Sequence record: PQ478073.1
Source: a phage
DNA: 64,000 bases
Direction: 5' to 3' (one strand)
Shown: positions 1 through 14,127 of the stretch, piece after piece
Layout: each line of letters opens with the position of its first letter
Numbering within the stretch: the stretch's first letter is position 1
Position numbers and translations under genes: made by a program
Notes under the pieces: generated by a model
Databases searched by the model: none
The model's input: the letters and a program-made list of their open reading frames with translations, nothing else
Told to the model about the DNA's origin: nothing

Positions 1-735
1 TCCCATGATGAGCGTCGCCTTTGTGAAATTTTGCATGGAACTCGTGATACCGAAAAGAAAACAATTTGGACAGATAATTACCTAAATCAAGGCGTTGCTC
101 TTGGTTATACTGGTGGTGAATTGGGTCCAGTGTATGGTAAGCAATGGCGTGAATGGGAAGATTATAAATTTAGTTCCAGTACTGAAGAAATTCAAGAATT
201 AAAAGATAAAGGATACAAAGTTATCGATTATACTGGTTCACATGGTGTTGTTATGAAACGTACAACTGACCAATTACAAGAACTAATCAAAGGTATAAAG
301 TCCGATCCATATGGTCGTCGCCACATTCTAAGTGCATGGAACGTTGGTGAGCTTGATGATATGACGTTGCCACCTTGTCATAGCTTTGTGCAATTTTGTG
401 TAGTACAAGGGAAACTAAGCTGCATTCTACATCAACGCTCCGCTGATCTATTTTTAGGAGTTCCATTTAATATCAGTAGTTACTCACTACTAACTCATAT
501 GATTGCACAAATTACTGGTTTAGATGTTGGTGAATTTATTTGGAATGGTGGTGATTGTCACATTTATAAAAACCACGTTGAACAAGTAAAAGAACAACTA
601 CAGCGAAAACCTCGTGAATTACCTGAATTGTGGCTTGATCCTACAATTACTAATATTGAAGATTTCACAATGGATTCTTTCAAATTAGTGAATTACAACC
701 CAATGCCAACAATTAAAGCACCGATGGCTGTATAA
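1..735 (+). CDS. td: thymidylate synthase (T4 Td-like), 5'-truncated by window edge
   Basis: Frame 1 is open from base 1 (track ORF 31 starts at an internal TTG). Motifs seen: [28 protein letters not shown] (catalytic Cys), [21 protein letters not shown]. Stop TAA 733-735. Confidence 0.93.
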
Positions 736-742
736 ACGAAAA

Positions 743-769
743 GGGAGAACTAATGTTCTCCCTTTTTTT
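743..769. terminator. intrinsic terminator, probably bidirectional, between td and the fibre gene
   Basis: GGGAGAAC-taat-GTTCTCCC hairpin 743-762 followed by T7 run 763-769; A-run upstream gives a weaker T-run on the minus strand. Confidence 0.7.
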
Positions 770-770
770 A

Positions 771-2735
771 TTATCTAATTGTTACCAATGTTCTTCCGTC
801 GAAACGTACATCAGGAGTTGAAGGTATACTAAACACTACGTTAGTGCCGTTAAACGTAACGCTATCGACCTCAACACGAGTATAGACACCAGGACTAACC
901 TGTTCCTGTATCTCTGCTGTGACGATGTTTGAGGCTGTTACAGTAAGGGTGTAGTAGTTACCACTTAATACCCAAGATGAAATGGTAAAAGCATCGGTTC
1001 TCACTGAACCTGAACCAATCGGAACCCATTGACCTTGAACTTTTTGCATTGAAGTACGCTCGGTATTTGAGTATGCAATCATACCATCAACGCCAACAGA
1101 GTTATCAATAGTTGCTAGTACTGGTAATTGGATACCATATCTATTAAAACGTGTTCTTATAGTTCCATTATCATAGATACTTACATCAGCATAATTACCC
1201 ATTGATAGTTTTAAATCAGAACTAACTAATTGGATTGTACTTTGATTAGTAGTACTTTCTAATGTAATTATACCATTAGCTAATAGATTTATATTTTTAA
1301 ATTTATTAGTTGTTCCATTGAAATTAGTGTTTGCTGTAAACGTACTAACTCCATTAACTGTAATTGTATCTGATGCAGCATCGCCTAATATGGTATTACC
1401 TTGAATGTTCAAATTACCACTAGCAGTGATATTACTAGCTGATGTATCACCAGTCAATGTGCTTGTACCATCAACCACAATATTACCATGAAACGCACTT
1501 TCACCATTTTTAAATTCAACTTGTACTTTATTCATTGAACTAAATGAAATAATATTACTACTAGCACTTAGTCCAACATTAGTATTGGTTGCATTATCAA
1601 ATCTTAGTACTGGGGTTGATGCTGGGGTTGAGGTTGTTTGGTATAATGTTAATGTTGAATTATTAATTCTAATACGTTCAGTTCCCGCAGTACTGAAACC
1701 AATTGCATCATCTGCTGGATGAAACATACCAGTATTAGCGTCTGACCATTTTGCAGGATCATTACCTGGGTTATTGGTTGGATCAAATGGATTGTTATTA
1801 AATGTCAATGCTGGTGCTGCTGCACTACCATACACCACACCAAAACGCCCTGAGCCGCTTGTTCCATCATTATACATGGAATCACCAGTTCTACGTAAAC
1901 ATTCAATCACAACGTTATCTATGGATGTTTGTACGGTTCCTGCGTTCGTTCTAAATTGACGATGGTTTGCAATCATTACTGTATTGTCATATAATACAGA
2001 AGCAGCAGAAATGCTTGTTCTTGACTGGCGTAGACGTATGTTTTTATCTTCAGTTATAATGATCCAATCACCATCTGATAGTGCGGTTTGGTTCATTGGA
2101 ACGCCTGAAGCAAATGGTTTGGTTAAGTCAGCATCTGTTGCTAAATTTTTAAGACCATCATGACCAGTACTAGGTATGGAAGCAGTAATAATTCTAGCAA
2201 ATGCATAAGTGACAAGTTTTGCACCTGAAACATTTGGATTTGAATCAACATAATAAAGGATTTCAATCCAGTTTCCCTGACCAGTTGGGTTGGTTGGTGT
2301 AAATGTAACCGGACTTGTTTGTGGGTTATTTGCTTCAAAGTGTGCTTGTGCTGCATCCATAATACCACGAACAACATAATAATCACCATTAAGTGATGCT
2401 GAAGGTGCAGGGAGCGGTGTTTGTGCCAAAGGTGGATCGATGTCGTCAGGGATTGGATTATATGTACCTACGAACTGCAAACCACTTGTTACCGAATCTG
2501 GTAATTGTGAAGTAAGGAGTTTGCCATTGGCATCTAAGTTTGCAAAACGACGATATGCCATTGTACCATCTTCAAAATCCAAAACACCTTCAAATGATTT
2601 CCATTCTTTATTGTACCTAATCATCCCTGAACGTATTACATCAGCGGTTTCTTTAGATGGTGCTTTCGGTAACTCTAAAAAAGATTTACTATCTATGATA
2701 ACACCACCATCACCTCTAATTCGATTTATACTCAT
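771..2735 (-). CDS. putative tail fibre / receptor-binding protein (654 aa)
   Basis: ATG at 2735 with GAGGA SD; Thr/Asn/Gly/Ser-rich beta-type composition typical of fibres; last gene of the minus-strand fibre cluster. Function is inferred from composition and context. Confidence 0.45.
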   Translation of the reverse strand: MSINRIRGDGGVIIDSKSFLELPKAPSKETADVIRSGMIRYNKEWKSFEGVLDFEDGTMAYRRFANLDANGKLLTSQLPDSVTSGLQFVGTYNPIPDDIDPPLAQTPLPAPSASLNGDYYVVRGIMDAAQAHFEANNPQTSPVTFTPTNPTGQGNWIEILYYVDSNPNVSGAKLVTYAFARIITASIPSTGHDGLKNLATDADLTKPFASGVPMNQTALSDGDWIIITEDKNIRLRQSRTSISAASVLYDNTVMIANHRQFRTNAGTVQTSIDNVVIECLRRTGDSMYNDGTSGSGRFGVVYGSAAAPALTFNNNPFDPTNNPGNDPAKWSDANTGMFHPADDAIGFSTAGTERIRINNSTLTLYQTTSTPASTPVLRFDNATNTNVGLSASSNIISFSSMNKVQVEFKNGESAFHGNIVVDGTSTLTGDTSASNITASGNLNIQGNTILGDAASDTITVNGVSTFTANTNFNGTTNKFKNINLLANGIITLESTTNQSTIQLVSSDLKLSMGNYADVSIYDNGTIRTRFNRYGIQLPVLATIDNSVGVDGMIAYSNTERTSMQKVQGQWVPIGSGSVRTDAFTISSWVLSGNYYTLTVTASNIVTAEIQEQVSPGVYTRVEVDSVTFNGTNVVFSIPSTPDVRFDGRTLVTIR

Positions 2736-2817
2736 TAAATATTTCCTCAGAATAGATTATATATGATGTATTTATTTTAGTTAAAAGAAAAGGCCAACCA
2801 TAGTTGACCTTATAATA

Positions 2818-3597
2818 TTAACGAGTACGTTCAGGAATTTCAATACCTTCATATACCCAAGTTGCAGCTTGTTGTGCTTTATAAATTGCATCAGGATCTA
2901 AATCATCAACTGCATCAATTGCAGCACACTGACGATCACATTCTGCAAACAACTGTTCTACCATAGCAAATGCTTCAGTATATAGTTGTGTCATTTCAGC
3001 AGCAGATAGTTTAACTATTGCATCATCGAGAAATATAGAGACAGTTTCAGCACCAGAAGTTACTTGAGTATAATAGTTAAGTAACATTTGACGACCAGCT
3101 AGATCAGTACTATAACGTTGTCCTTTAAACAAATAACCACGATTAATACGTTCACCACGTTCTGCTACAGTTCTGGATTTTAAATCATATTTCACATCAG
3201 TAATATTCATATCAACGTAATGGTATGTTTTCAGTACTGTTAGTGCTTTATACTCTGATGTAGCTTCTTCAATAAATTCAACAACTGGTTGATTATCATC
3301 TTTTAACTTAATAAACTCCAATGGTTGTTCAATAGCATTAACATTGCCAATATTTTTATACACTAACCACCAAAAACCTTCTTCTTTTCTAACAGCATCA
3401 TTAGGTTCCACTGGAGAACCATCTTTACTTGAAATACCATAAAGAGTTCTAATATCACTATAAAGATAACGATAGGTTTGTGGATCTTCTGGTGTAGCAC
3501 CTGGACGTTCTTTCAATCCTTTTACACCAATTGGGTTAGAAATAATGCTACCCAATTCATAATTTTCTTTTGAATTTCCTTTCACATATGTGAACAT
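2818..3597 (-). CDS. hypothetical protein within fibre module (259 aa)
   Basis: ATG at 3597 with GAGGT SD; ordinary composition; product unknown. Confidence 0.5.
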   Translation of the reverse strand: MFTYVKGNSKENYELGSIISNPIGVKGLKERPGATPEDPQTYRYLYSDIRTLYGISSKDGSPVEPNDAVRKEEGFWWLVYKNIGNVNAIEQPLEFIKLKDDNQPVVEFIEEATSEYKALTVLKTYHYVDMNITDVKYDLKSRTVAERGERINRGYLFKGQRYSTDLAGRQMLLNYYTQVTSGAETVSIFLDDAIVKLSAAEMTQLYTEAFAMVEQLFAECDRQCAAIDAVDDLDPDAIYKAQQAATWVYEGIEIPERTR

Positions 3598-3620
3598 ATA
3601 ACTACCTCACTTGTTATGAT

Positions 3621-3660
3621 GGTGTCACCCAAAAGAGTGACACCTTTATTATTATAATTA
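3621..3660 (-). promoter_or_regulatory. intercistronic hairpin between giant fibre gene and downstream ORF
   Basis: 8-bp inverted repeat GGTGTCAC / GTGACACC (3621-3628, 3637-3644) with 8-nt loop. On the minus strand it is not followed by a T-run, so it is probably not a terminator. Confidence 0.3.
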
Positions 3661-6600
3661 TTAAGCTGTACGTTGTGCAATAAACATATCTACAACTGGA
3701 CTTACACCATCATAAATGACTTGGTAAATGGTCACAGAGTTTGCAGTTTTGTTTAGAGTGCCATCAACAACCGCATAAGTACCATCAGTAGTAAAGTTTC
3801 TGTTACCAGTTGCATCTTGTTTCACATAAATGTATACTGAAGATGCTTTACCACCACCGATTAGACCAGTGATTGGTGCTAGAGTTGTATCTTGATCAAG
3901 GGTGATAAAGTATACGTTGCTAGTACCATCAGGAGTCCAAGTACCAGTTGGTGCAATAACAGAAGAAGTTACTTGATTAGGAATAACATCATATTTTTTA
4001 GTAGTTACAGTAGTAGTAGTTAAATCAGCATTAGTTGTTGTTAGTTGACCAGTAACTGTTACATTTTTGTCAAACACAGCATTTTCTTTGAAAGAAGATG
4101 TTGCATTAACAGTTAATGTATCAGCAGCAGCGTCACCTAGAACAACACTACCATTTGCAGTCATTAAACCAGTAACAGTTAAAGTACCACCTACGGTTGC
4201 TGCACCAGTTACAGATGCACTAGCAAGAGTAGCAGCACCAGAAGTAGTAATTGTAGTTACAGAAGTAGCAGCAAGGGTAGCAGTACCAGTTGCAGAAATA
4301 TCACCACCGACAGTTAGGTTACCAGAAGTAATACCAACAGTTCCTGTGATATTCGCACCACTTGACATAGTAACTGCACCACCGAATGAACCAGTAGTAG
4401 TTACTTCAAGAGTGTTACCTTTTAGTAAACCAGTTGCAGTAATGCTTGTTCCTGCGGTAATACTAGTACCAGCAGCAACACTGTTAGTTGCAGTTAAAGA
4501 TTTAACAGCCACATCAGAGTTAGCTTGGTTTAGCGTTGCGTTTAGAACACCAGTTACTGTAAAGTTACCATTGTTAACTACGTTACCATTGATGGTTAAG
4601 TTGTTGTTTTGTGAACCAACATCACCAATAGTTGCAGATTTAGAAATCAATTCTGCACCAGATGTGATATTACCTGCTGCACTAATAGTATCAGCAGCAA
4701 CAACAGCATATGGTTCGATAGTTTGACCACTAACATCGATATCAGCGTTGATACCACCGTCTACACGCAAGGAACCTGCGATGTAAGTGTTAGGGAAAAT
4801 CTGAACTGTTTCTGGTTGATCACCAATTTTTGTACCAATTACAACGTTCGCACCAGTTTTAACTGCACCAGATGTTGTTAGTGAACCTAAAGTTGCTTCA
4901 CCAACTACACCTAATGTACCACCTACGGTTGCGTTATTAGTAACTGCCAAAGCTGTTCCTTCACCGTTAAGGGTGATAGATGGAGCAGTCGCTGCACCAG
5001 TTACGCCTAATGTACCACCTACGGTTGCGTTGCCATCAGAATGTAGTGTAGTAGCTACAGAAAGACTGTTTGCAACTACATCAGTACTTGCAAGATCCAA
5101 TGCACCTGGTGTTAATGTACCAGTAATGTTAACATTATTACCAAAGGTTGCTGCACCAGTAACATCTAGAGTTGTACTAAATGTACCAGAAGTTGCAGAA
5201 ACAGCACCAGAATCTAGTGAACCTACAGTTGCTTTTCCAGTTACACCTAGTGTACCACCTACAGTTGCGTCGGTTGTTACACCTAATGTACCAGTACTAA
5301 CTTCTTGAGCGGTTGCTTTACCAGATGCAGTAATAGTTGAAGTAGATACTCCCCCAGTTAATGTGCTTGCACCAGTTACTGCTAAAGTTGTTGCTGCTGT
5401 TACGCTGTTCACGTTAAGGTCAGCACCAGCTAGGTTCAAACCACCTTCAGGAATAAATTCACCCTTCACTGTTAGTTTTTGTACTGTACTATCACCAGTG
5501 ACTGCCAGTGTAGATGCAGTTAAACCACCATTCATACTAGCTGCACCAGTTACACCGAGTGTAGTGGTTACAACAGCACTATTAAGAGTAGCAGTGTCGG
5601 AAATATTAGCACTTGGTGCAGCAATAGTCCCAGCATCAACTTGAATACCACCAGTAACAACTTGGATACCACCAGCATTAACAGTGAGTTTACCAGCAGT
5701 GTTTAAGGTATTTGATACAGTTGTAGCACCAGATAGTGTACTTGTACCAGTAACACTTAGATTACCAGAAATTATTGGGCTACCAGTTACATTACCAGTT
5801 GTTAGAATTAAATCAGTACCTACAGTTGTAGAACCAGTACTTTCTAATGTTACACCAACAATGTTAGAAGAACTTAGGTTAATTGAACCTGTTACAGTCA
5901 AGTCACCATTAACAGTTGCGTTACCTAGTGAATTTAATGATTTCACTGAAACATCAGTAGTGCTAAGGTCAATTACACCCGCAGTTAATGTACCAGATAC
6001 AGCCAAATCACCAGTGATTGCAGTGTTTTTAGTAATAGAAACACTTTCAGCAGCAGAAGTTAGAGAACCAACAGTCAAAGCACCGCCAACAGTGGCGTTA
6101 TTAGTAACGTTAAGTGCAGTACCAACACCAGATAGTGTTGCAGACGCACCATTAACAGCACCAGAGATATTTGCATTTGCAGCAGATACATCACCTGAAA
6201 CAACCGCAGTTGTTGCATTTACTGTAGTTGCAGTAATATCAGTACTTTGTACTTTTGGTAGTAGGTTAACACCTTCAGCACTACTAACAGTGATGATTCC
6301 AGCACTTGTTAGAGATTTTACTGATACATCAGCAGCAGATAGGTCTACAGTACCAGAAACAACAAGGTCACCACCAATATTTGCACCAGCAGTTGTTGTG
6401 ATTGATTTAGCATTAACATCAGTTGTTGTTAAATCAATAGCACCTGGTGTTACTGTACCAGAAACTGTTAGGTCACCAGTAATAGATGTATTATTAGCAA
6501 TAGATACACCCGCAGTATTACCAATGGTTGGAACTTCAATAGAAACTGCTGTAACTTTACCAGAAGATGTTACATCAGCAACAGAAGTTGCACCAGTTAC

Positions 6601-9186
6601 ATTCAAATTAGTAATATTCGCAGTAGTAGAACCTAGAGTTGCAATTGTCGCATCAGTACTTTGTAGTTTAGGTAGAACACTACTAATAGTTGATTCATTA
6701 CTAACGATTGCACCAGTACTGGTTAGAGATTTAACTGTTACATCAGCAGCAGTTAGGTCTACTGTACCGTTAACGGTTAAGTTTCCACCAATTGTTGCAC
6801 CAGCAGTTGTTGTGATTGATTTAGCGTTAACATCAGTTGATGCTAGGTCGATAGATCCAGGAATCACAGCACCACTAACAGTTAAGTCACCAGTGATAGA
6901 AGTATTATTACCAATTGTAACACCAGTTACATTGGAAATAGATGGAGTAACTAGAGATGCAGTTGTTGTTTCACCACTTACATTTAAAGTTGTTCCGACT
7001 ACAACATCAGCACTTGTACGAACAGATGCTAGATTAGATGGACCTGTTACCGCAAGTTCAGTTGCATTAACAGTATTAATTGTTGCAGTAGTACTATTAA
7101 GTACTGGTAAAACGTTGGCATTAACCAAATCATTACTTTTAACAATACCAGAAGTTGTTACAGATTTAACGTTAAGATCAGCGGCTGATAAATCAAATGA
7201 CCCTTGAACAACTAAATCACCACCAATTGTTGCACCAGCAGTTGTTGTAATAGAGTTTGCATTAATATCAGTAGTGCTTAGATCTAAAGAACCTACAGTC
7301 AAACTACCAGTAATATCAACGTTTTCAGTAAAGTTAGTATTTCCAGTAATAGTTGGAGCAGAAAGACTTGTAGCACTAATAGTTGTACCATTAATAGTTC
7401 CACCACTTAGTGTACCACTTGCAGTAATAGTTGGAGCACTTACTTCAGTGGAAGCAGTAATAGATGGTGCAGATACAGATGTTGTACCAGTAATAACACC
7501 AGCATTAATAGAACCAGCAGATAATGCACCAGATAGATTTGCAGTAGTACCTGCAATATCACCAGTAACGGTTAGTTTAGCACCTACGGTAGTATTTCCA
7601 GTACTTTCAAGAGTTGCACCTTTCACGTTTGCAGCAGCTACAACAGAGTTAGGAGTTAAGTTTTGACCACTAACATCAACAGTTAGGCCAGTAACAGTAC
7701 CAGTGAAATCAACATCATTAAGAATAGTTTTACCACCAACTTGTAGGAATGGTGTACCTGGGGCTTGTGTTTCATTACCAGTGATAGTTAGGTAATCTAG
7801 TTTGTTAAGACCGTTACCAGTAATACCATAGGTAGATAGTGAAGCATTACCAAAAGTTGCGGTTTTTAGAACATTCAATGTTGCAGGTGAAACAACTTCT
7901 GATTGAACTTCGTTAGGTAAAATAACAGTTGGGCGTTGGCCTGGTGCTGTATATCCAAATCCTAATTTAACTGCTGCATCTTGACTGTTTTGACCCAAGC
8001 TAATGGATTTGAAAGAAGCAGTACTATTAAAGCCAGTGATATTTGAACCTAAAGTTACTGCACCAGTTAGTGAAGATGTACCAGTAACATTCAATGAAAC
8101 TGCATTAATATCGTCAAGTTGGAATGTACCACCAAGTAGACCAGAAACGTTAATGTTATTAAAGTTTGCGGTTCCTGTACTTTCAATATTAGGAATAGTT
8201 GCTGTGCCAGTAACTTCAAAGTCAGCAACTTTGGTTTTACCCTTTTGAACTTCCAATAGTGGGGTGTCTGGGGATTGAGTATTGTTACCAGATACAGTTA
8301 GGTAATCTAGTTTGTTAAGACCATTACCTGTAATACCATAAGAAGAAAGAGAAGCGTTACCAAATGTTGCAGATGTCAAAACTGTTAAATTTGCAGGTGA
8401 CATTAATTCAGATTGAATTTCGTTTTGAAGAACTACAGTAGGACGTTTACCTGGAGCACTGTAAGGGAAGCTTAGTCTGAAGGTTTGAGATTCAGAGTTA
8501 GAACCAATACGAATATCTTTGAATGTAGCAGTACTGTTAATACCAGTTACGTTTGCACCAAAAGTTACTGCACCTTGTTGGTTAGATGCACCAGAAACGT
8601 TCAATGTTACTGCATTCAAATCTGATAGATTAAATTGTCCACCAAGTGTACCACTAATAGTTACATCGTTAAATGTAGCAGTACCAGTACTACTAATATT
8701 GGTTGTACTTACATTAGTAATTTCTGCGGTATTAGCAGTAATTTTATCAAATGCAGCAGTAGTACCAACATCAGCAGTAATATTACCTTTAAATGCTGTT
8801 GTTTCAGCAACTTCTAAGTTTTTAACTTTAGTTGCTTGTAGAGTGGTTGTACCAGCAGTTTGTGTAAAATCAGAACCAACTGATACAGTACCGTTAAAGG
8901 TAGCGTTTGAATTAATTGTTGCTGTATCAGACCCGACAACTGCACTACCGATTGTAGTATTACCCTCAACACCAAGACCACCAGAAAGTGTTGCTTTGCC
9001 ACCAACATCTAAAGTAGATGTAATGTTGGCAGTTGATGATTCAATGGCAGTAAAAGTTGCATTTGCAAAAGTTACAGTACCATTTACAGTTAGGTTATTA
9101 TTGAAAACAGCATTTCCTTTGACTAAAAGATCCTTACCAACCGTACCAGCACCAGTAATATCTAAGTCAGTTTTTATTGAGTACAT
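3661..9186 (-). CDS. giant repetitive fibre/adhesin-like structural protein (1841 aa)
   Basis: ATG 9186 with GGAGGG SD; extreme T/G/S/N/V/A composition and internal tandem duplications at protein and DNA level; lies in the fibre cluster. Confidence 0.6.
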   Translation of the reverse strand: MYSIKTDLDITGAGTVGKDLLVKGNAVFNNNLTVNGTVTFANATFTAIESSTANITSTLDVGGKATLSGGLGVEGNTTIGSAVVGSDTATINSNATFNGTVSVGSDFTQTAGTTTLQATKVKNLEVAETTAFKGNITADVGTTAAFDKITANTAEITNVSTTNISSTGTATFNDVTISGTLGGQFNLSDLNAVTLNVSGASNQQGAVTFGANVTGINSTATFKDIRIGSNSESQTFRLSFPYSAPGKRPTVVLQNEIQSELMSPANLTVLTSATFGNASLSSYGITGNGLNKLDYLTVSGNNTQSPDTPLLEVQKGKTKVADFEVTGTATIPNIESTGTANFNNINVSGLLGGTFQLDDINAVSLNVTGTSSLTGAVTLGSNITGFNSTASFKSISLGQNSQDAAVKLGFGYTAPGQRPTVILPNEVQSEVVSPATLNVLKTATFGNASLSTYGITGNGLNKLDYLTITGNETQAPGTPFLQVGGKTILNDVDFTGTVTGLTVDVSGQNLTPNSVVAAANVKGATLESTGNTTVGAKLTVTGDIAGTTANLSGALSAGSINAGVITGTTSVSAPSITASTEVSAPTITASGTLSGGTINGTTISATSLSAPTITGNTNFTENVDITGSLTVGSLDLSTTDINANSITTTAGATIGGDLVVQGSFDLSAADLNVKSVTTSGIVKSNDLVNANVLPVLNSTTATINTVNATELAVTGPSNLASVRTSADVVVGTTLNVSGETTTASLVTPSISNVTGVTIGNNTSITGDLTVSGAVIPGSIDLASTDVNAKSITTTAGATIGGNLTVNGTVDLTAADVTVKSLTSTGAIVSNESTISSVLPKLQSTDATIATLGSTTANITNLNVTGATSVADVTSSGKVTAVSIEVPTIGNTAGVSIANNTSITGDLTVSGTVTPGAIDLTTTDVNAKSITTTAGANIGGDLVVSGTVDLSAADVSVKSLTSAGIITVSSAEGVNLLPKVQSTDITATTVNATTAVVSGDVSAANANISGAVNGASATLSGVGTALNVTNNATVGGALTVGSLTSAAESVSITKNTAITGDLAVSGTLTAGVIDLSTTDVSVKSLNSLGNATVNGDLTVTGSINLSSSNIVGVTLESTGSTTVGTDLILTTGNVTGSPIISGNLSVTGTSTLSGATTVSNTLNTAGKLTVNAGGIQVVTGGIQVDAGTIAAPSANISDTATLNSAVVTTTLGVTGAASMNGGLTASTLAVTGDSTVQKLTVKGEFIPEGGLNLAGADLNVNSVTAATTLAVTGASTLTGGVSTSTITASGKATAQEVSTGTLGVTTDATVGGTLGVTGKATVGSLDSGAVSATSGTFSTTLDVTGAATFGNNVNITGTLTPGALDLASTDVVANSLSVATTLHSDGNATVGGTLGVTGAATAPSITLNGEGTALAVTNNATVGGTLGVVGEATLGSLTTSGAVKTGANVVIGTKIGDQPETVQIFPNTYIAGSLRVDGGINADIDVSGQTIEPYAVVAADTISAAGNITSGAELISKSATIGDVGSQNNNLTINGNVVNNGNFTVTGVLNATLNQANSDVAVKSLTATNSVAAGTSITAGTSITATGLLKGNTLEVTTTGSFGGAVTMSSGANITGTVGITSGNLTVGGDISATGTATLAATSVTTITTSGAATLASASVTGAATVGGTLTVTGLMTANGSVVLGDAAADTLTVNATSSFKENAVFDKNVTVTGQLTTTNADLTTTTVTTKKYDVIPNQVTSSVIAPTGTWTPDGTSNVYFITLDQDTTLAPITGLIGGGKASSVYIYVKQDATGNRNFTTDGTYAVVDGTLNKTANSVTIYQVIYDGVSPVVDMFIAQRTA
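5900..7300 (-). repeat. in-frame tandem repeats, period ~420 bp (~140 aa), 3-4 copies
   Basis: Protein repeats NNTSITGDLTVSG...IDL(A/T)(S/T)TDVNAKSITTTAGA(T/N)IGG(D/N)L; near-identical DNA blocks at ~6370-6510, ~6780-6925 and ~7215-7290. Boundaries approximate. Confidence 0.6.
7650..8710 (-). repeat. in-frame tandem duplication, period ~525 bp (~175 aa), 2 copies
   Basis: Protein repeats ...FPYSAPGKRPTVVLQNEIQSE...GNASLSSYGITGNGLNKLDYLT... vs ...GYTAPGQRPTVILPNEVQSE...GNASLSTYGITGNGLNKLDYLT...; DNA blocks e.g. 7786-7820 vs 8290-8325. Boundaries approximate. Confidence 0.6.
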
Positions 9187-9221
9187 TTATACCCTCCATT
9201 ATAACCTTGTTAATATGTATA

Positions 9222-9228
9222 TATTTAG
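9222..9228 (-). promoter_or_regulatory. candidate late promoter (CTAAATA) for giant fibre gene
   Basis: Minus-strand CTAAATA ~35 nt upstream of ATG 9186 and just downstream of a terminator; resembles the T4-type late -10 element TATAAATA. Confidence 0.35.
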
Positions 9229-9280
9229 TTTTATTATGCTGTTATCCAACAATTAATACATTATTTGACAAAAGCAAATA

Positions 9281-9319
9281 TAATAAAAAAACCAGACTTA
9301 TTTAGAACAAAGTCTGGTT
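9281..9319 (-). terminator. intrinsic terminator (minus strand) after RBP gene
   Basis: Perfect 10-bp stem AACCAGACTT / AAGTCTGGTT (9290-9299, 9310-9319) with minus-strand T-run (complement of 9281-9289), immediately after stop at 9326-9328. Confidence 0.7.
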
Positions 9320-9325
9320 AATTTT

Positions 9326-10222
9326 TTACTTACCGGAGATAACAATCTTACCACTGAAAGAAATATCAGAAGTGAAGATTACATCACCAGTACTACTAAT
9401 TTGTGTATCAGTCACTACCAACTCGAATGGAGATGACGCAACACTCCCAGGTGTTTTATTTGCATAAATTGAAATATACAAATTATCTGGGGTTTGATTG
9501 TGTTCGGATGCTGGAATAGTGATTGTGAAATCACCAGCACTAGAAACCCAATCTGCTTGGTTTACTAATTTACTATAAGGTACTGTCATTGTGGTTGCTC
9601 CTATAATGTTTACTTTAACACTTGCATAATCTGTGATTTGACCAATCACATCAATTGTTATATCCCCAATACCACTAACTGTTACTGTGGTTTGGAATAC
9701 TGATTCCAATGCAACATTACCTGGGTCACCTTGTAGTTGAATCATAATATCAGAACCTCTACCATGAACTGATTCTGGTAGTGTGTAAGTATAATGATCA
9801 GTAGTATCTGGTACTAATGTAAATGCAGAAACAGGAACTATTTCAGTAGTTACATATGAGCTATCAGTTCCAGGTGAGCTACCTTTAAATGGTTTCCAAA
9901 TACCAAGATCTTTAATATAAATTTGAAGAACATTAGTACTATCAACCAAAAAGTAAACGTCACCATCTAGACCAATAGAATCGGATGGTGCTGTTGTTCC
10001 ACGTAAGATACCAGAACTACCACCACCACTGTGTGCGTTTAAATATCCCAATGTAACCAAGTGTGTGTTTGCAGTTGGTTCACCTGCTGAAATTGGAAGA
10101 AGTTGTGTTCCTGAGTAGTTTTGAATTTGCACAACACTACCATTTGTGGTAATCTGTGCACCATTCTTCCCAAGAATGAAGGACTTCTTCATGGTTCCTT
10201 CTAAATTAGAAAAAACTGCCAT
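9326..10222 (-). CDS. receptor-binding protein with conserved N-terminal anchor (298 aa)
   Basis: N-terminus MAVFSNLEGTMKKSFILGKNG is near-identical to that of the adjacent tailspike, with a divergent C-terminus; AAGGAG SD. Confidence 0.55.
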   Translation of the reverse strand: MAVFSNLEGTMKKSFILGKNGAQITTNGSVVQIQNYSGTQLLPISAGEPTANTHLVTLGYLNAHSGGGSSGILRGTTAPSDSIGLDGDVYFLVDSTNVLQIYIKDLGIWKPFKGSSPGTDSSYVTTEIVPVSAFTLVPDTTDHYTYTLPESVHGRGSDIMIQLQGDPGNVALESVFQTTVTVSGIGDITIDVIGQITDYASVKVNIIGATTMTVPYSKLVNQADWVSSAGDFTITIPASEHNQTPDNLYISIYANKTPGSVASSPFELVVTDTQISSTGDVIFTSDISFSGKIVISGK

Positions 10223-10238
10223 TTTAATATAATCTCCT

Positions 10239-12380
10239 TTATGGTAGGGTTATGTAAGTTACGGGTTGGGCGGCTTTTAATGCTGCACCAGCGGCAGTTG
10301 CTGTTATGATAGGATCTGCAATATCAATTCTATATACGTTGTTTACAACATACACTGCACGAGTTATATACGTTCTCAAATCACCACCATTTTCACCAGC
10401 ACCAGATATAATAATCTCAGTACCAGCAGCTTTTGCATATTGGTTTTCACCCCATGACACACCCAATGCTTCTATATATGTTTGTCCTACTACGGTTTGT
10501 CTAATAGTGTCGTATTTTCCGAAAAAAGAACCACCAACGGTCACAATATATTTTCCACCAGATTGCTTATGTATAATAGTACCTTCTGGGAAATAACGAC
10601 CACCCGGAAAAGTGTCGTAGGGAATATAATATTGTTCAACTACTGGTATCAGTACTGGGCCACGGTGACCTGTACCATCGATTGCAGTTGTAACTTTAAA
10701 GTTATTAGATGATTGGTCTATTCTGTCTACATACATTTTAGAAAAACTATATTTTGAAACATTACAATCATCTTGAACAACACAGTTAGTCCAATTAGTA
10801 TAAGTATATTTAGAGCGAGTATAGATACCACCACCTTCGCCTTCTGTAGAGAGATGTTGACCAATTACATCTAATTCTTTAGTTCTAATATCACTAAATT
10901 TAGATGATGATGGCAAACCACGCCAAAGGATTTTAGAACAAGTGATATTGCTCAATTCTGTATTATTTAACCAATTATCAGAACCGGAAGTATAAACAAG
11001 TATAGAAGACTCAGGAATATAGAGATTAGAAATTTTAAAGTTTCTAGGTGGCCCAGCAAAACGACCAGAAGTTACACCCCAGTTTATTGAAACCATTCTA
11101 TTTGTGATAGAAGGATCATTAAGCAAATGACCAGTCAACCCATCAATAATGAATTCTTTAGAACCATAAGTTATAACACCAGCAGTGGTTAATCCAGTAC
11201 CGACAGAAACTAAAGATGATGGATAAACTTCATTATTAAGTATTTTAAAGTCCATGCCTAATTCAACGTGGATACATTGTCTAACATTATATAGTCTGTT
11301 ATTTTTAATAACAAAGTTTCTGACATATTGTGTATCTGGTGCATCTAAACCATAAGGACCAGAACCAGCAACACCAATACCAATACCCCAGTTTGAAAGT
11401 GGGATTGGAGCGTTAGAACCATCAACGTTTTCAATTATGTTCCCTTCAATAACAAAACCATCAGGATAGTGTGAGTTAATTACGTTTAGTTCAATTGCAT
11501 CACCATATATATCATGTATGTGGTTATATGAATATCTACCAACCTTCATTTTCTCACCAGTACCTTGTTGAAGAACACCATACTTACATTGGGTCATTTC
11601 ATTAAAGCAAAAATCTATTGTACCTGGTTGTGTCATGCCTTGCATTAAAAATGCAGCAGTACTTGTGATGTTTATAAATTTATTAAAATAAAACTTACCA
11701 TCGCCACCGAAGAATTTTAAATAACATCCAGTAAGTGTTGCAAATTGTATTTGGGAATTAATAACGGATACCATAGTACCACCGTTACCAGTAATAGTTC
11801 CCCCAAACCAAGTTACATCTTCCAGATATATTGCCGTTTTGATACGGTAATTACCACCAGCCTGAATTTGTATTTTATTTTCTTTAGCATACGCAGCACA
11901 TAAATTTACAGCAGCAGTGTCATCAGTTTCGCCATCACCTTTAGCACCAAATTCTTCTGGTGTTATATAAAACTGTGCCTGTTGAACTGTACCTCCAGTA
12001 ATAAGTCCGATGAAATCCCCACCATTTTTACTGGATAGAACTTTTTTATTAATGTATAATGATTTTACCCATGTACCATTGCTTTTTGCAAAAATATCAA
12101 CAATACCATCTTCATCAATTTGAAAATACGTATTATTGTTCTTTCCTATATCATCGGTAGGTGGTACAACACCAAATAATGCATTAGGGTTATCTTCAAG
12201 ATATTTTACGTTAACTGCTGAATTAGGATCAGATGAAGTTCCTACCTTCAGTGGTAGGAACTGTTCTCCTAGATAATCTTTTATAGAAACTGAATCATTG
12301 ATAAAATTTATTGAAGCACCTTTTTTCCCCAATATGAATTTGGGCTGCATAGTTCCTTCAAAATTAGAAAATACTGCCAT
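10239..12380 (-). CDS. tailspike, pectate-lyase-fold polysaccharide depolymerase candidate (713 aa)
   Basis: N-terminus MAVFSNFEGTMQPKFILGKKG; hallmark FGAKGDGETDDTAAVN motif of beta-helix pectate-lyase-type tailspikes; GGGAGG SD. Confidence 0.7.
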   Translation of the reverse strand: MAVFSNFEGTMQPKFILGKKGASINFINDSVSIKDYLGEQFLPLKVGTSSDPNSAVNVKYLEDNPNALFGVVPPTDDIGKNNNTYFQIDEDGIVDIFAKSNGTWVKSLYINKKVLSSKNGGDFIGLITGGTVQQAQFYITPEEFGAKGDGETDDTAAVNLCAAYAKENKIQIQAGGNYRIKTAIYLEDVTWFGGTITGNGGTMVSVINSQIQFATLTGCYLKFFGGDGKFYFNKFINITSTAAFLMQGMTQPGTIDFCFNEMTQCKYGVLQQGTGEKMKVGRYSYNHIHDIYGDAIELNVINSHYPDGFVIEGNIIENVDGSNAPIPLSNWGIGIGVAGSGPYGLDAPDTQYVRNFVIKNNRLYNVRQCIHVELGMDFKILNNEVYPSSLVSVGTGLTTAGVITYGSKEFIIDGLTGHLLNDPSITNRMVSINWGVTSGRFAGPPRNFKISNLYIPESSILVYTSGSDNWLNNTELSNITCSKILWRGLPSSSKFSDIRTKELDVIGQHLSTEGEGGGIYTRSKYTYTNWTNCVVQDDCNVSKYSFSKMYVDRIDQSSNNFKVTTAIDGTGHRGPVLIPVVEQYYIPYDTFPGGRYFPEGTIIHKQSGGKYIVTVGGSFFGKYDTIRQTVVGQTYIEALGVSWGENQYAKAAGTEIIISGAGENGGDLRTYITRAVYVVNNVYRIDIADPIITATAAGAALKAAQPVTYITLP

Positions 12381-12394
12381 TATGACATCCTCCC

Positions 12395-13510
12395 TTAAAT
12401 ATTATCTTGAATCGGTTGGATAGGAGCTTGCCATGAAAGAGTACAAATAATTTCCATTTTTCCATAAGGACTGTTGTTAACAGAATCGTTGAATACACAT
12501 GAAATAATTTCATCAACATCGGATGCTGCATGATTAGTTTCATTAACAATAAAACGCATCTGACGATTGATATCAAAGTAGGAAGTTGGTGCAATTACAG
12601 TCCCACCAATATCTTCTTGTGCTTCACCACCAAAACGTACAAACATATCAGTTACAGGAAGAGAATAAGGTTGTATAACGTTTACATCAATATTAGAAAC
12701 TACATATCCAGCAGGACACGTACCAATAACTAATAGTGCGTTAGTCCATGAGCTATCTATAGTATTTCTAATAGAAATTGTATCTTTACCTGGTGCACCT
12801 GGTTCGCCTTGTATACCTTGAATACCTTGCTGACCTTCTTTACCACGGAATAGAATACCATCACTCCACTCTTTTGAAGGAGGGGTAGTTGTAGTTACTT
12901 CATCAACATAATATAGTTTTCCATCAGTGTTGTTATAAAAACAATAATCAACTGGAAGATTTTCAATACTTGGAAATTGATCACCACTGCTATCAATATG
13001 GAAACGACCACGCGGACCTTGTTCACCACGGAAAGGGATACCATCACTCCAAGTGGCAGTTACACTTTGATAGAAATAAATCTTACCATCTTGAGTATTA
13101 TAAAATGTATAGTTATTAAAAAGACCAGTTGTTGGGAAAGTAGTTCCAGCACTATCAATGTGGAACGGCTTACCCGCTTCACCCGTATCACCTTTACCAA
13201 ACTCAACACTAATCCATGTACTTGTCGGATCTTGTGCATCATTTGATTTAAAGTATAGAGTACTGGTATTGTTAGCCAAGCTTAAGTAGCACCACCCAAG
13301 TGGTTCACCAACTTTAAATTGTTCGGAAGGAATTTCAAAACCAATCTCATTAGGATAAAAGTTTTTACCATTCTCGCCATTCTGTCCTACAACAAGACCT
13401 AAATCTTGAATTGTGTTATCTGCATAGGTTACAATTAAATGCCCAGCACCATTAATAACTAGACTTTTGATGCCGGAGTTATTACATGAACCATTAAATG
13501 AAATTGTCAT
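12395..13510 (-). CDS. collagen-repeat tail fibre protein (371 aa from ATG 13510)
   Basis: G-X-Y runs (GEQGPRG; GKEGQQGIQGIQGEPGAPGKD). The track start 13546 has no SD; ATG at 13510 has an AGGGA SD. Confidence 0.6.
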   Translation of the reverse strand: MTISFNGSCNNSGIKSLVINGAGHLIVTYADNTIQDLGLVVGQNGENGKNFYPNEIGFEIPSEQFKVGEPLGWCYLSLANNTSTLYFKSNDAQDPTSTWISVEFGKGDTGEAGKPFHIDSAGTTFPTTGLFNNYTFYNTQDGKIYFYQSVTATWSDGIPFRGEQGPRGRFHIDSSGDQFPSIENLPVDYCFYNNTDGKLYYVDEVTTTTPPSKEWSDGILFRGKEGQQGIQGIQGEPGAPGKDTISIRNTIDSSWTNALLVIGTCPAGYVVSNIDVNVIQPYSLPVTDMFVRFGGEAQEDIGGTVIAPTSYFDINRQMRFIVNETNHAASDVDEIISCVFNDSVNNSPYGKMEIICTLSWQAPIQPIQDNI

Positions 13511-13545
13511 AATATTTCCCTTGTATGAGTTAATGTCATATACCA

Positions 13546-13553
13546 ATATTTAT
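13546..13553 (-). promoter_or_regulatory. candidate late promoter (ATAAATAT) for the fibre operon
   Basis: Minus-strand ATAAATAT 36 nt upstream of ATG 13510, in a divergent intergenic region. Confidence 0.35.
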
Positions 13554-13581
13554 CAGTACAAAATACATTTCGTTATCATTA

Positions 13582-13588
13582 ATAAATA
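13582..13588 (+). promoter_or_regulatory. candidate late promoter (ATAAATA) for plus-strand island
   Basis: ATAAATA 33 nt upstream of ATG 13621. Confidence 0.3.
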
Positions 13589-13620
13589 AATGAAAGTTCA
13601 CTACTAAAAGGGCTTAAACA

Positions 13621-14118
13621 ATGGCATTAAGATCAAAAGACTTTCTCTTCAGAAGAAAAACAAAAGATGGTTCATGGCAAGATTTTCCTGAATCTGATAG
13701 CTGGTATCCAGCTAACTTGGATTATCACTGGAATGAACAAACGTTACCACTCGCAAGTGGTGGCTACTATGGCTGTACTACAGGTTTACATACTATTTCA
13801 TTTACACTACGTAATTTTATTGGTAGAATTTATGTATTAGCTACATTAGCTAGTAATCCTACTGATGATGATTGGTTTCCAATTAAATTCACTGAAAGTT
13901 GTAATTATTATCTTGAATTTACTGATATGGTTATTTTAAATCCAAATGGTGGGGATTTAATTAGACAACAAGGAACTACCGGAACATTTGCTGAAACAGT
14001 AACTGGTAATTTTACTTACCTTAAAGTTGGTATAGACCGTGATTATATTAGTAAGTATCCATCAGATGTCCAAAAAAGTTTAGCTGGGAAGTTAGAACAA
14101 ATTTTAATTAACTACTAA
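13621..14118 (+). CDS. hypothetical protein (165 aa)
   Basis: Track ORF tightly packed with the next two genes; product unknown. Confidence 0.5.
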   Translation: MALRSKDFLFRRKTKDGSWQDFPESDSWYPANLDYHWNEQTLPLASGGYYGCTTGLHTISFTLRNFIGRIYVLATLASNPTDDDWFPIKFTESCNYYLEFTDMVILNPNGGDLIRQQGTTGTFAETVTGNFTYLKVGIDRDYISKYPSDVQKSLAGKLEQILINY

Positions 14119-14127
14119 GGATTAGAA

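What the first reader, a model, noticed from the sequence alone, without database searches (positions are those of the whole stretch)
771..13510. Multi-receptor-binding-protein arsenal with a shared N-terminal anchor module
Five or six consecutive minus-strand fibre or spike genes fill ~12.7 kb. The 298-aa and 713-aa proteins share a near-identical ~20-aa N-terminus (MAVFSN(L/F)EGTM...FILGK(N/K)G) and then diverge, the pattern expected for interchangeable spikes docking to one adaptor. One carries the pectate-lyase tailspike motif and another has collagen triplets. This implies a branched, multi-specificity host-recognition apparatus.
Basis: seen in the sequence. Interest (0 to 1): 0.6.

Follow-up and report, generated by a model that had tools for sequence, protein, structure and literature searches.

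The report
Jumbo coliphage tail-fibre cluster, shared anchor
This is the tail-fibre gene cluster of a known type of giant E. coli phage, in which a slime-degrading (colanic acid) spike enzyme borrowed from unrelated phages carries the same N-terminal module as a small conserved fibre protein; the pattern is real but is an ordinary example of how phages build modular host-recognition proteins.

Summary
Six consecutive minus-strand structural genes fill 771-13510 of a window from an Asteriusvirus (121Q/PBECO4/phAPEC6-like jumbo coliphage, 92% nucleotide identity; 99% to a metagenome contig). The 298-aa and 713-aa proteins share about 105 N-terminal residues (39% identity, E 7e-20), not only 20. 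The DNA has diverged, so this is not an assembly artefact.

The 713-aa protein is a chimera. Residues 96-712 are a phi92 gp150-type colanidase (PDB 6E0V, E 1e-236). That body occurs in many unrelated phage genera, but never with residues 1-95.

The module is a ~65-aa anchor core plus one copy of a widespread fibre hairpin repeat. In metagenomic phages the core heads other depolymerases and long fibres, which argues for a portable module.

The "arsenal" is smaller than claimed:
- The 259-aa protein is a DUF4376 fibre chaperone or cap.
- The 298-, 371- and 654-aa proteins are conserved components, not swapped cassettes.
- Swapping is seen in the long fibre.

The docking partner and the branched architecture remain untested. 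I rate this a new member of a known kind, of modest interest.

The parts
12395..13510 (-). 371-aa conserved 'tail protein' (ORF as listed runs to 13546 from an upstream TTG). Predicted N-terminal beta domain, three beta-hairpin repeats separated by short collagen-like G-X-Y runs, and a C-terminal jelly-roll head.
   Evidence: PHROG 13565 'tail protein'. Homologues are 368-387 aa and start at Met13. AF2 model mean pLDDT 78. Foldseek matches the head to trimeric phage cement proteins and other viral jelly rolls. Orthologues detected in virions: phAPEC6 gp253 (65.6% coverage) and CBB_228.
12782..12844 (-). Longest collagen-like run in the 371-aa protein: 7 G-X-Y triplets, GKEGQQGIQGIQGEPGAPGKD.
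   Evidence: Regex on the translation. Pfam Collagen 16.3 bits, below the 27.2 cut-off.
10239..12380 (-). 713-aa chimeric colanidase tailspike: class-A N-module joined to a colanic-acid-degrading beta-helix body.
   Evidence: Precomputed Pfam PF27800 WcaM. NCBIfam WcaM partial hit.
12066..12380 (-). Class-A N-terminal module of the colanidase (residues 1-105). The anchor core is residues 1-65 (12186-12380); a hairpin repeat follows.
   Evidence: 39% identity to the 298-aa protein's N-terminus, E 7e-20. Profile search. dN/dS 0.09-0.12.
10239..12095 (-). Colanidase body (residues 96-713), homologous to phi92 gp150.
   Evidence: PDB 6E0V, E 1.1e-236, residues 96-712. 57% identity to Justusliebigvirus SD2 residues 189-801, which carries an unrelated 188-aa N-terminus. 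Found in many genera, always starting at residue 96 or later.
9326..10222 (-). 298-aa conserved mini-fibre: class-A N-module followed by two Ig-like beta-sandwich domains.
   Evidence: PHROG 10468 'virion structural protein'. 73 homologous clusters, all full length. AF2 mean pLDDT 81. Only generic Ig-like fold matches. CBB_227 detected in virions.
9887..10222 (-). Class-A N-terminal module of the 298-aa protein (residues 1-112). The anchor core is residues 1-65 (10028-10222).
   Evidence: More conserved across the family (61-64% pairwise) than the Ig-like domains (42-55%).
3661..9186 (-). 1841-aa long tail fibre with internal ~140-aa shaft repeats. This is the most variable gene of the locus.
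   Evidence: PHROG 4549 'tail fiber'. DNA repeats of 264 nt at a period of 414-435 nt. phAPEC6 gp256 and CBB_226 detected in virions. 30-92% identity among relatives, and one or two paralogous genes per genome.
8827..9186 (-). Class-B N-terminus of the long fibre (MYSIKTDL..., residues 1-120), shared by all long-fibre paralogues of the clade.
   Evidence: 46-72% identity over 120 aa to GAP32, CBB, Munch, XaC1, WPEC3, Turkey5, JNE01 and A4 fibres, including both paralogues where there are two.
3673..4221 (-). C-terminal tip region of the long fibre (residues 1656-1838).
   Evidence: Matches solved chain 9CUY_g 'putative tail fiber protein', E 8e-29. The last ~95 aa are about 40% identical to tail fibres of rV5-, phAPEC8-, PVP-SE1- and CR3-like phages.
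2818..3597 (-). 259-aa DUF4376 protein, probably the cognate tail-fibre chaperone/cap of the long fibre.
   Evidence: Pfam PF14301, E 1.4e-9, 38.8 bits against a cut-off of 25. It lies directly downstream of the fibre and diverges together with it (87% against 99% for the flanking genes). DUF4376 proteins are tail-fibre chaperones in Alteromonas phages V22 and A5 (PMC10579305). CBB_225 detected in virions.
771..2735 (-). 654-aa conserved fibre-like structural protein: conserved N-terminal domain, shaft repeats like those of the long fibre, and a C-terminal hairpin followed by a region weakly similar to the 298-aa protein.
   Evidence: PHROG 14293. Weak local similarity to the long fibre (E 7e-5) and, not significantly, to the 298-aa protein (E 0.2-0.9). 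51-65% identical across the clade, with the middle deleted in RaK2. CBB_224 detected in virions.

Best explanation
The region is the tail-fibre/host-recognition module of an Asteriusvirus (121Q-like jumbo myovirus), next to the baseplate genes.

Gene order:
- a conserved collagen-hinged 371-aa fibre-like protein;
- a colanidase tailspike;
- a conserved 298-aa mini-fibre;
- the variable long fibre;
- its DUF4376 chaperone/cap;
- a conserved 654-aa fibre-like protein.

The 298-aa and 713-aa proteins carry paralogous copies of one N-terminal module. It consists of a ~65-residue anchor core (MAxFSNxxGTMxxxFxLGKxG..., ending in a trimeric 'neck'-like motif) and one beta-hairpin fibre repeat.

Most likely mechanism (inferred, not shown): the module trimerises and docks its carrier onto a conserved virion or baseplate site. 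The ancestral RaK2-like phage had only the 298-aa protein at this position. The E. coli lineage gained a second carrier when a diverged copy of the module was fused, at about residue 96-105, to a horizontally mobile colanidase body of the phi92 gp150 type.

The virion can then cut through the colanic-acid slime layer while the long fibre, and possibly the Ig-like mini-fibre and the 654-aa fibre, bind cell-surface receptors.

Shown here: homology, chimerism, the phyletic pattern, purifying selection, and virion presence of orthologues of five of the six proteins. Inferred: docking function, trimeric state, virion attachment of the colanidase, and enzymatic specificity.
For: Identity of the locus:
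- 92% nucleotide identity and full synteny with 121Q, SP27 and phAPEC6.
- 99% identity to a metagenome contig.
- Baseplate wedge, hub and gp15-like genes lie adjacent.

Shared module:
- BLASTP E 7e-20 over about 105 aa.
- Two copies per genome in roughly 30 Escherichia/Salmonella records of the Asteriusvirus group; one copy in GAP32, CBB, Munch, XaC1, RaK2 and K64-1.
- In the outgroups the order is tail protein, ~290-aa protein, long fibre, ~210-aa protein, ~645-aa protein, thyA, with no colanidase.

Chimerism:
- Residues 96-712 match PDB 6E0V at E 1e-236.
- phi92-type proteins have an unrelated 188-aa N-terminus.
- 256 phage records carry the body, always from residue 96 or later outside this genus.

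Portability of the anchor core. A profile search of 1.84 billion representatives finds it at residue 1 of:
- a KP32gp37-like depolymerase with an S74 chaperone domain (P0092, E 1e-12);
- a beta-helix depolymerase (P0095, E 6e-12);
- BNR-propeller fibres of 1218-1366 aa (P0113, P0116, P0147, P0200);
- further proteins.
Two of these sit in one fibre locus of an uncultured phage.

Constraint:
- dN/dS is 0.09-0.13 for both modules.
- The module is the most conserved part of the 298-aa family.
- RaK2-type phages keep the module alone as a 115-aa protein.

Virion presence: CBB_224-228 and phAPEC6 gp253 and gp256 were found by mass spectrometry.

A second N-terminal class (MYSIKTDL...) shared by long-fibre paralogues shows the same design principle.
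Against: - No docking partner or branching domain was identified. Pfam, PHROG and PDB searches of neighbouring conserved proteins gave nothing informative.
- The colanidase, the 298-aa, the 259-aa and the 654-aa orthologues are not in the phAPEC6 virion list of 62 proteins. RaK2 gp062, the 371-aa orthologue, was not detected either.
- The two anchors are only 40-48% identical and evolve at different rates, so they may not share a site.
- The AF2 model of the anchor is only moderately confident (pLDDT about 44-83 over residues 1-70) and monomeric. No structural match to a known adaptor-binding domain was found.
- dS is saturated (above 1), so the dN/dS values are rough.
Confidence: 0.7

Rival explanations
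1. The module is real, but the 298-aa protein is a structural baseplate or fibre-connector component rather than a receptor-binding protein. The colanidase simply copied its attachment domain. The locus then holds only two genuine host-recognition proteins (long fibre and colanidase) plus accessory and structural parts, not a five-to-six-protein arsenal.
For: - The 298-aa family has one fixed architecture in 73 clusters and 41-100% identity over the full length.
- It is retained, with the 371-aa and 654-aa proteins, across phages of Escherichia, Cronobacter, Erwinia, Salmonella, Xanthomonas and Klebsiella hosts.
- RaK2 keeps only the N-module.
- Fold searches give only generic Ig-like matches.
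- The 259-aa protein is a chaperone-type DUF4376 protein.
Against: - The first Ig-like domain is the fastest-evolving part (42% pairwise identity; dN/dS up to 0.36 for the body against phage A4), as expected of a ligand-contacting tip.
- The same hairpin-plus-beta-sandwich arrangement ends the BNR-propeller fibres (P0113) and possibly the 654-aa protein, though its similarity to the 298-aa protein is not significant (E 0.2-0.9).
Confidence: 0.4
2. The shared N-terminal module is a self-contained trimerisation and folding nucleus of the fibre, not a docking domain. Attachment to the virion is mediated elsewhere or not at all.
For: - The second half of the module is a generic fibre repeat found in up to 13 copies inside many unrelated proteins.
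- Positions 39-66 resemble the trimeric neck motif of autotransporter adhesins and phage hyaluronidase HylP, but at sub-threshold E values of 0.03-0.1.
Against: - The distinctive part (residues 1-38, including the invariant start MAxFSNxxGTM) is always at the extreme N-terminus and is never repeated internally.
- It is kept as a stand-alone 115-aa protein in RaK2-type phages.
- In known tailspikes the N-terminus is the particle-binding end (established knowledge; framework summarised in 10.1101/2022.03.15.484430).
Confidence: 0.15
3. The 713-aa colanidase is a soluble, non-virion enzyme released at lysis, and its N-module is a relic.
For: Not listed among the 62 phAPEC6 virion proteins. PHROG files the family under 'moron/auxiliary'.
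Against: - The N-module is under purifying selection (dN/dS about 0.1).
- It is intact in about 30 genomes.
- The gene sits inside the fibre operon between two virion proteins.
- The phAPEC6 GenBank record lacks CDS features for this gene, so it may not have been in the search database (speculation).
- The homologous phi92 gp150 has been proposed to be a virion fibre, although its placement in the phi92 maps is still unresolved.
Confidence: 0.1
4. The N-terminal identity is a local duplication or assembly artefact.
For: None beyond the near-identity of the first ~35 nucleotides.
Against: - The DNA diverges after 35 nt and the proteins are 39% identical.
- The same arrangement occurs in about 30 independently sequenced phages, metagenome contigs and bacterial assemblies.
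Confidence: 0.01

Closest known systems
Tail-fibre locus of Escherichia phage 121Q (genes 569-574) and other Asteriusvirus members (PBECO4, phAPEC6, SP27)
   Same: Same six genes in the same order at 87-99% protein identity, next to thyA and the baseplate genes.
   Different: Relative to 121Q there is a mosaic tract of 75-90% nucleotide identity over about 2100-8700, covering the long fibre, the DUF4376 protein and the 5' part of the 654-aa gene. Some near-identical relatives carry an extra 496-aa fibre gene or two long-fibre genes. The papers on these phages that I searched do not mention the shared N-module.
Phage phi92 gp150 colanidase tailspike (PDB 6E0V/6E0W)
   Same: Residues 96-712 align end to end, E 1e-236, with 57% identity to a Justusliebigvirus orthologue. 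gp150 is reported to hydrolyse the beta-1,4 Glc-Fuc bond of colanic acid (PMC13450770).
   Different: The N-terminal particle-binding part is unrelated: 188 aa in the phi92 type against the 95-105-aa class-A module here. Activity was not tested here.
Branched receptor-binding-protein systems with N-terminal docking domains or peptides (G7C gp63.1/gp66, CBA120 TSP1-4, Klebsiella KP32/KP34 RBP1-RBP2, phiKp24, RaK2 gp526/gp529)
   Same: Two receptor-binding-type proteins share a conserved N-terminus and have unrelated C-terminal bodies. The N-terminal structural part is short (about 100 aa), as for 'secondary' fibres (PMC13352976 listed).
   Different: No sequence similarity to those anchors. No T4 gp10-like branching domain or primary RBP was identified. 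One of the two carriers is a conserved non-enzymatic mini-fibre, and a stand-alone anchor exists in RaK2.
Alteromonas phage V22 gp26/gp27 and A5 gp8/gp9 tail fibre plus DUF4376 chaperone cap
   Same: A DUF4376 protein is encoded directly downstream of the fibre. Here it co-varies with the fibre.
   Different: The fibre here is five times longer. The chaperone orthologue is found in purified CBB virions. The function is untested.
Klebsiella jumbo phages RaK2 and K64-1 (multi-depolymerase fibres)
   Same: Same phage clade. The syntenic locus is present, with the 371-aa orthologue, the class-A module and the 654-aa orthologue.
   Different: In RaK2 the locus is reduced: a 115-aa module-only protein, no long fibre or chaperone, and an internally deleted 654-aa orthologue. 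Its many depolymerases are encoded elsewhere and use other N-terminal motifs.

Membership tests
Asteriusvirus tail-fibre locus (121Q genes 569-574) | Nucleotide similarity and conserved gene order between thyA and the divergently transcribed structural genes | tested here: met
   100% query coverage at 92% identity in 14 or more records. Identical gene order. 87-99% protein identity.
phi92 gp150-type colanidase tailspikes | Full-length homology of the beta-helix catalytic body to a solved colanidase | tested here: met
   phmmer against PDB 6E0V, E 1.1e-236, residues 96-712 against 11-623. Precomputed Pfam PF27800 WcaM.
phi92 gp150-type colanidase tailspikes | phi92-type N-terminal particle-binding domain | tested here: not met
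   No similarity between residues 1-95 and the 188-aa N-terminus of the SD2 orthologue. Outside the Asteriusvirus group, no hit among the 60 sampled of 256 records covers residues 1-95.
phi92 gp150-type colanidase tailspikes | Hydrolysis of colanic acid | not testable with these tools
   Needs purified protein and colanic acid, or a halo assay on a mucoid (rcsC/lon) E. coli strain.
Branched RBP systems with shared N-terminal anchors (G7C/CBA120/KP32 type) | Two or more RBP-type proteins in one genome with homologous N-termini and unrelated C-terminal bodies | tested here: met
   A second class is shared by long-fibre paralogues in relatives.
Branched RBP systems with shared N-terminal anchors (G7C/CBA120/KP32 type) | A primary RBP or adaptor with a branching (T4 gp10-like) domain that receives the anchor | tested here: inconclusive
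   No Pfam, NCBIfam or PDB-sequence hit of that kind in the six proteins or in the conserved neighbours. Sequence searches could miss a fold-level match.
Branched RBP systems with shared N-terminal anchors (G7C/CBA120/KP32 type) | Physical attachment of the anchor to the virion | not testable with these tools
   Requires cryo-EM, pull-downs or multimer modelling, which were not available here.
Collagen triple-helix repeat proteins (Pfam PF01391) | Score above the Pfam gathering threshold, i.e. a long G-X-Y run | tested here: not met
   16.3 bits against a cut-off of 27.2. The longest run is 7 triplets. 'Collagen-like hinges' is the most that can be said.
DUF4376 tail-fibre chaperones (Pfam PF14301) | Pfam domain above threshold, and a gene immediately downstream of a tail-fibre gene | tested here: met
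   38.8 bits against a cut-off of 25, residues 138-236. The gene starts 64 nt after the fibre stop. Role of the family taken from PMC10579305.
DUF4376 tail-fibre chaperones (Pfam PF14301) | Requirement for folding of the cognate fibre | not testable with these tools
   Needs co-expression experiments.

The most novel reading that the evidence does not exclude
The ~65-residue N-terminal core (MAxFSNxxGTMxxxFxLGKxG... plus neck motif) may define an undescribed docking-module family with no Pfam model (none in the local copy, and none in newer precomputed Pfam annotations of the window proteins). It would be shared by RaK2-like jumbo phages and unrelated uncultured phages to mount interchangeable bodies: colanidase, capsule depolymerases, BNR-propeller fibres and Ig-like mini-fibres. 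In Klebsiella jumbo phages it would be reduced to a stand-alone 115-aa 'plug' that keeps the socket filled. If so, it offers a defined splice point (about residue 65-105) for re-targeting jumbo phages.
Probability: 0.45. Interest if true: 0.45.

Novelty: new member of a known kind. Interest (0 to 1): 0.3.

Why it matters
Jumbo coliphages of this genus are being isolated repeatedly as therapy candidates, yet their receptor-binding apparatus is essentially unannotated.

This analysis contributes three things:
- It assigns a role to each of the six genes.
- It shows which genes actually vary between isolates: the long fibre, its chaperone and an optional extra fibre.
- It identifies a natural fusion point at which a foreign depolymerase was grafted onto a phage-specific anchor.

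That gives a concrete design rule for swapping depolymerase or fibre bodies in this phage group. It also gives a sequence signature for finding more carriers of the same anchor in metagenomes. It does not change any general concept, because modular receptor-binding proteins with shared N-terminal anchors are textbook phage biology.

Tried and rejected
- A word-indexed homologue search with the 114-aa module alone returned only three short proteins. The exhaustive profile search was needed.
- Sequence searches of the PDB gave nothing for the 298-, 383-, 654- and 366-aa proteins.
- A 12-sequence anchor profile against the PDB gave only sub-threshold 'neck' motif hits to HylP and autotransporter adhesins.
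- I suspected that Pfam PF27114 'Phage_tail_beta', reported for two metagenomic anchor carriers, was the anchor. It is not: the window proteins lack it in the same precomputed annotation.
- Looking for a co-occurring partner gene around metagenomic anchor carriers failed. Only the first ~64 residues are shared with the window, and the contigs are short or flanked by non-structural genes.
- The split colanidase gene in phage JNE01, which breaks exactly at the module junction, looked like a natural separation of anchor and enzyme. Its close relative Turkey5 has the intact gene, so it is an isolate-specific frameshift or a sequencing error.
- A possible third shared N-terminus (M[TS]ISFN in the 371-aa protein and in the 536-aa fibre at 59136-60746) is not significant.
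- Promoter and terminator scans gave no more promoter-like sites than shuffled sequence (42 against 54 expected). They gave a few terminator-like hairpins, at 738-767, 2790-2811 and 3621-3644.

Full report
**Where the window comes from**

Region 771-13546 matches 56 phage records. At least 14 of them cover it completely at about 92% nucleotide identity: Escherichia phages SP27, phAPEC6, G17, 121Q, Sharanji and others, all genus Asteriusvirus of the RaK2-like jumbo myoviruses. An ENA metagenome scaffold is 99.0% identical over window 240-16000. Two contigs from bacterial genome assemblies are 98.7% identical. The neighbours are thymidylate synthase on one side. On the other side lie three divergently transcribed structural genes, a NUDIX hydrolase, a T4 gp15-like protein, a ClpA-like protease, a 3333-aa virion protein, a gp6-like baseplate wedge and the hub/lysozyme. 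The finding therefore sits in the tail/baseplate part of a known phage type.

**Check of the observation**

All six minus-strand ORFs are present. The last one most likely starts at Met13 (coordinate 13510, 371 aa), as in all relatives.

The 298-aa and 713-aa proteins share much more than a 20-residue motif. BLASTP aligns residues 1-109 with 1-104 at 39% identity, E 7e-20. The module occurs nowhere else in the 64-kb window.

The DNA of the two 5' ends is nearly identical for only about 35 nt and then diverges. The same gene pair is found in about 30 independently sequenced genomes. An assembly or duplication artefact is therefore excluded.

The 'pectate-lyase' signal is a sub-threshold PF12708 hit. 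The collagen triplets are one run of seven G-X-Y and three runs of three in the 371-aa protein, below the Pfam Collagen threshold.

**What each gene is**

- 713 aa. Residues 96-712 match the solved phi92 gp150 colanidase (6E0V) at E 1e-236. A newer precomputed Pfam annotation calls it WcaM-like, and NCBIfam gives partial WcaM hits. gp150 is reported to cleave the beta-1,4 Glc-Fuc bond of colanic acid (PMC13450770).
- 1841 aa. A PHROG 'tail fiber' with ~140-aa shaft repeats. Its C-terminal 180 residues match a solved tail-fibre chain (9CUY_g, E 8e-29). Its last ~95 residues resemble the fibre tips of rV5-, phAPEC8- and PVP-SE1-like phages.
- 259 aa. It carries DUF4376 above threshold. In Alteromonas phages the DUF4376 protein encoded after the fibre is its chaperone, described as a transient cap (PMC10579305).
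- 371 aa. The model shows an N-terminal beta domain, three hairpin repeats separated by the low-confidence collagen-like runs, and a C-terminal jelly roll that resembles trimeric phage cement proteins.
- 654 aa. A conserved fibre-like protein with shaft repeats like the long fibre (E 7e-5). Its C-terminal region shows only a non-significant similarity to the 298-aa protein (E 0.2-0.9).

**Virion presence**

In Pectobacterium phage CBB the syntenic genes CBB_224 to CBB_228 are orthologues of the 654-, 259-, 1841-, 298- and 371-aa proteins. All were detected in purified virions. In phAPEC6 only gp253 (the 371-aa protein, 65.6% coverage) and gp256 (the long fibre) from this locus are in the list of 62 proteins. 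The colanidase has therefore not been shown to be in any virion. RaK2 gp062 was not detected either.

**Anatomy of the shared module**

I searched a two-sequence profile against 1.84 billion representative proteins. The result splits the module in two.

Positions ~66-110 are one copy of a widespread fibre repeat (G..P....G..GD.Y......Y.K....W). It occurs in up to 13 copies in many unrelated proteins and three times in the 371-aa protein.

Positions 1-65 are a distinct core that is always at residue 1. This core heads:
- the 285-300-aa family;
- module-only proteins of 113-115 aa;
- the colanidases;
- a KP32gp37-like depolymerase with an S74 chaperone domain (P0092, E 1e-12);
- a beta-helix depolymerase (P0095);
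- four BNR-propeller fibres of 1218-1366 aa;
- several smaller proteins.

P0092 and P0095 lie in the same fibre locus of an uncultured phage, a second case of two enzymes sharing this anchor. The last third of the core resembles the trimeric neck motif of autotransporter adhesins and phage HylP, but only at sub-threshold E values. No Pfam model covers the core.

**Evolutionary pattern**

The outgroups GAP32, CBB, Munch and XaC1 have one module-bearing gene, the ~290-aa protein. Their gene order is tail protein, 290-aa protein, long fibre, DUF4376 protein, ~645-aa protein, thyA. Asteriusvirus genomes have the colanidase inserted between the first two.

The colanidase body is found in Justusliebigvirus, Phapecoctavirus, Seunavirus, 42-kb phages, T7-like Cronobacter phages and, at another locus, GAP32. 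In all of these, homology starts at residue 96 or later. The phi92-type protein has an unrelated 188-aa N-terminus. The 713-aa protein is thus a chimera with its joint at about residue 96-105.

The colanidase anchor is roughly equidistant (35-39%) from all 298-type anchors, whereas those are 54-69% identical among genera. The duplication is therefore old, or was followed by fast divergence. Within each genome the two anchors stay at 40-48% identity, with no sign of homogenisation.

Both modules are under purifying selection (dN/dS 0.09-0.13; dS is saturated, so the values are rough). In the 298-aa family the module is the best-conserved part (61-64% against 42-55% pairwise identity). In the colanidases the body is better conserved than the anchor. 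That fits an invariant substrate.

RaK2 and K64-1-type phages have lost the long fibre, the chaperone and the Ig-like domains. They keep a 115-aa module-only protein next to the 371-aa orthologue. This argues that the module has a structural role of its own.

**Where the locus really varies**

Against 121Q, divergence is confined to about 2100-8700: the long fibre, the DUF4376 gene and the 5' part of the 654-aa gene, the last mostly at synonymous sites. The colanidase, 298-aa and 371-aa genes are 97-100% identical. WPEC3, Turkey5, JNE01 and XaC1 have two long-fibre genes. Two contigs that are 98.7% identical to the window carry an extra 496-aa repeat-rich fibre gene between the DUF4376 and 654-aa genes.

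All long-fibre paralogues share their own conserved N-terminus, MYSIKTDL... (46-72% identity over 120 aa against 30-55% for the rest). This is a second anchor class built on the same logic.

**Interpretation**

The best-supported reading has three parts.
- The module is a trimeric particle-binding anchor.
- The ancestral carrier is a conserved mini-fibre.
- The E. coli lineage grafted a mobile colanidase onto a diverged copy of the anchor.

This adds slime-layer penetration to a host-recognition set whose variable element is the long fibre with its chaperone.

Three of its elements are not supported:
- 'Interchangeable spikes on one adaptor' is not shown.
- 'Five or six receptor-binding proteins' overstates the count. 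One is a chaperone and three are clade-conserved components of unknown binding function.
- No adaptor or branching domain was found.

**Comparison with known systems, and novelty**

The design is that of known modular or branched receptor-binding systems: G7C, CBA120, KP32/KP34, phiKp24 and RaK2 gp526/gp529. The anchor is unrelated to theirs in sequence. The genes themselves are already in GenBank, annotated as 'colanic acid degradation', 'tail fiber' and 'structural protein'. The papers on this genus that I could search do not mention the shared module.

I rate it a new member of a known kind. It is useful for annotating and engineering these phages, but it would not surprise a specialist.

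Noticed in passing
L021 19619-21109 and L022 19619-21109 (contigs from bacterial assemblies GCA_031701365.1 and GCA_014685065.1); corresponds to the 82-nt gap at window 2736-2817: Relatives 98.7% identical to the window carry an extra 496-aa gene between the DUF4376 and 654-aa genes. It has about nine ~37-aa repeats (GNILS.DS.GLFVP.N..Y.AGNGI.I....IS.KIS), a C-terminal globular part and an N-terminus MYNIRTDI... that faintly recalls the long-fibre start. It looks like an optional fibre cassette. GenBank relatives with a ~1.8-kb longer locus (BAU.Micro_ELP-22, UB, CRJP21) probably have it too.
   Followed up: partly
L003 12001-12348 (RaK2 ORF061w) and 12513-14045 (ORF060w): In Klebsiella phage RaK2 the class-A module exists alone as a 115-aa protein. 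The 654-aa orthologue has lost its middle third, and the long fibre and DUF4376 genes are absent. The same 1-104 match is seen in K64-1, Muenster, KP13-7 and phiKp_21.
   Followed up: partly
L006 14001-14426 and 14377-16143 (phage JNE01): The colanidase gene is split by a frameshift exactly at the anchor/body junction (residues 120/121), giving a 141-aa anchor-only product. The close relative Turkey5 has an intact 713-aa gene, so this is isolate-specific or a sequencing error.
   Followed up: yes
window 2100-2700: The 5' part of the 654-aa gene is only about 89% identical to 121Q in DNA while the protein is 99% identical. The divergence is almost purely synonymous at the edge of the mosaic tract that covers the long fibre, which suggests recombination with a diverged relative under strong purifying selection.
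   Followed up: partly
L001 6001-18789 (phAPEC6 record MK817115.1): The GenBank record has no CDS features for the colanidase, 298-aa, 259-aa and 654-aa genes, although intact ORFs 87-99% identical to the window proteins are there. This may explain why they are missing from the published virion proteome.
   Followed up: no
window 59136-60746 (+): Another tail-fibre gene (536 aa, PHROG 13229 'tail fiber protein') lies far from the cluster, beyond the portal, major-head and HNH genes. It has His-x-His motifs (DHIHSF, HYHGI) reminiscent of T4 gp12/gp37-type metal sites. It does not carry the class-A or class-B N-terminus.
   Followed up: partly
window 57276-58373 (+): An HNH/endonuclease-family ORF (PHROG 681/559) sits directly after the major head protein gene. 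It is probably a homing endonuclease.
   Followed up: no
window 4067-9256 (+ strand): Several long plus-strand ORFs (up to 507 aa at 5684-7207) overlap the long-fibre gene. They are rich in P/V/T/A and are most likely antisense artefacts of the repetitive, stop-poor fibre sequence, not genes.
   Followed up: no
L010/L017 (Logan SRR18476386 contig, 119.9 kb), genes at L017 1431-3773 and 10001-12118: An uncultured phage has two depolymerases with the class-A anchor core. One is KP32gp37-like with an S74 chaperone domain and one is a beta-helix protein. They flank two paralogous ~910-aa fibres that share their own N-terminus (MSKKI.G.L.V...) and a 199-aa protein. The cluster lies between nrdD/nrdG and small non-structural genes.
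   Followed up: partly
window 738-767: A strong 13-bp-stem hairpin lies between the convergent thyA and 654-aa genes and looks like a bidirectional terminator. A further terminator-like hairpin lies at 2790-2811, between the DUF4376 and 654-aa genes.
   Followed up: no
L015 4683-6704 (GAP32_128): Cronobacter phage GAP32 has a distant colanidase homologue (28% identity) at an unrelated locus among non-structural genes. Its N-terminus is different and it lacks the class-A anchor.
   Followed up: partly
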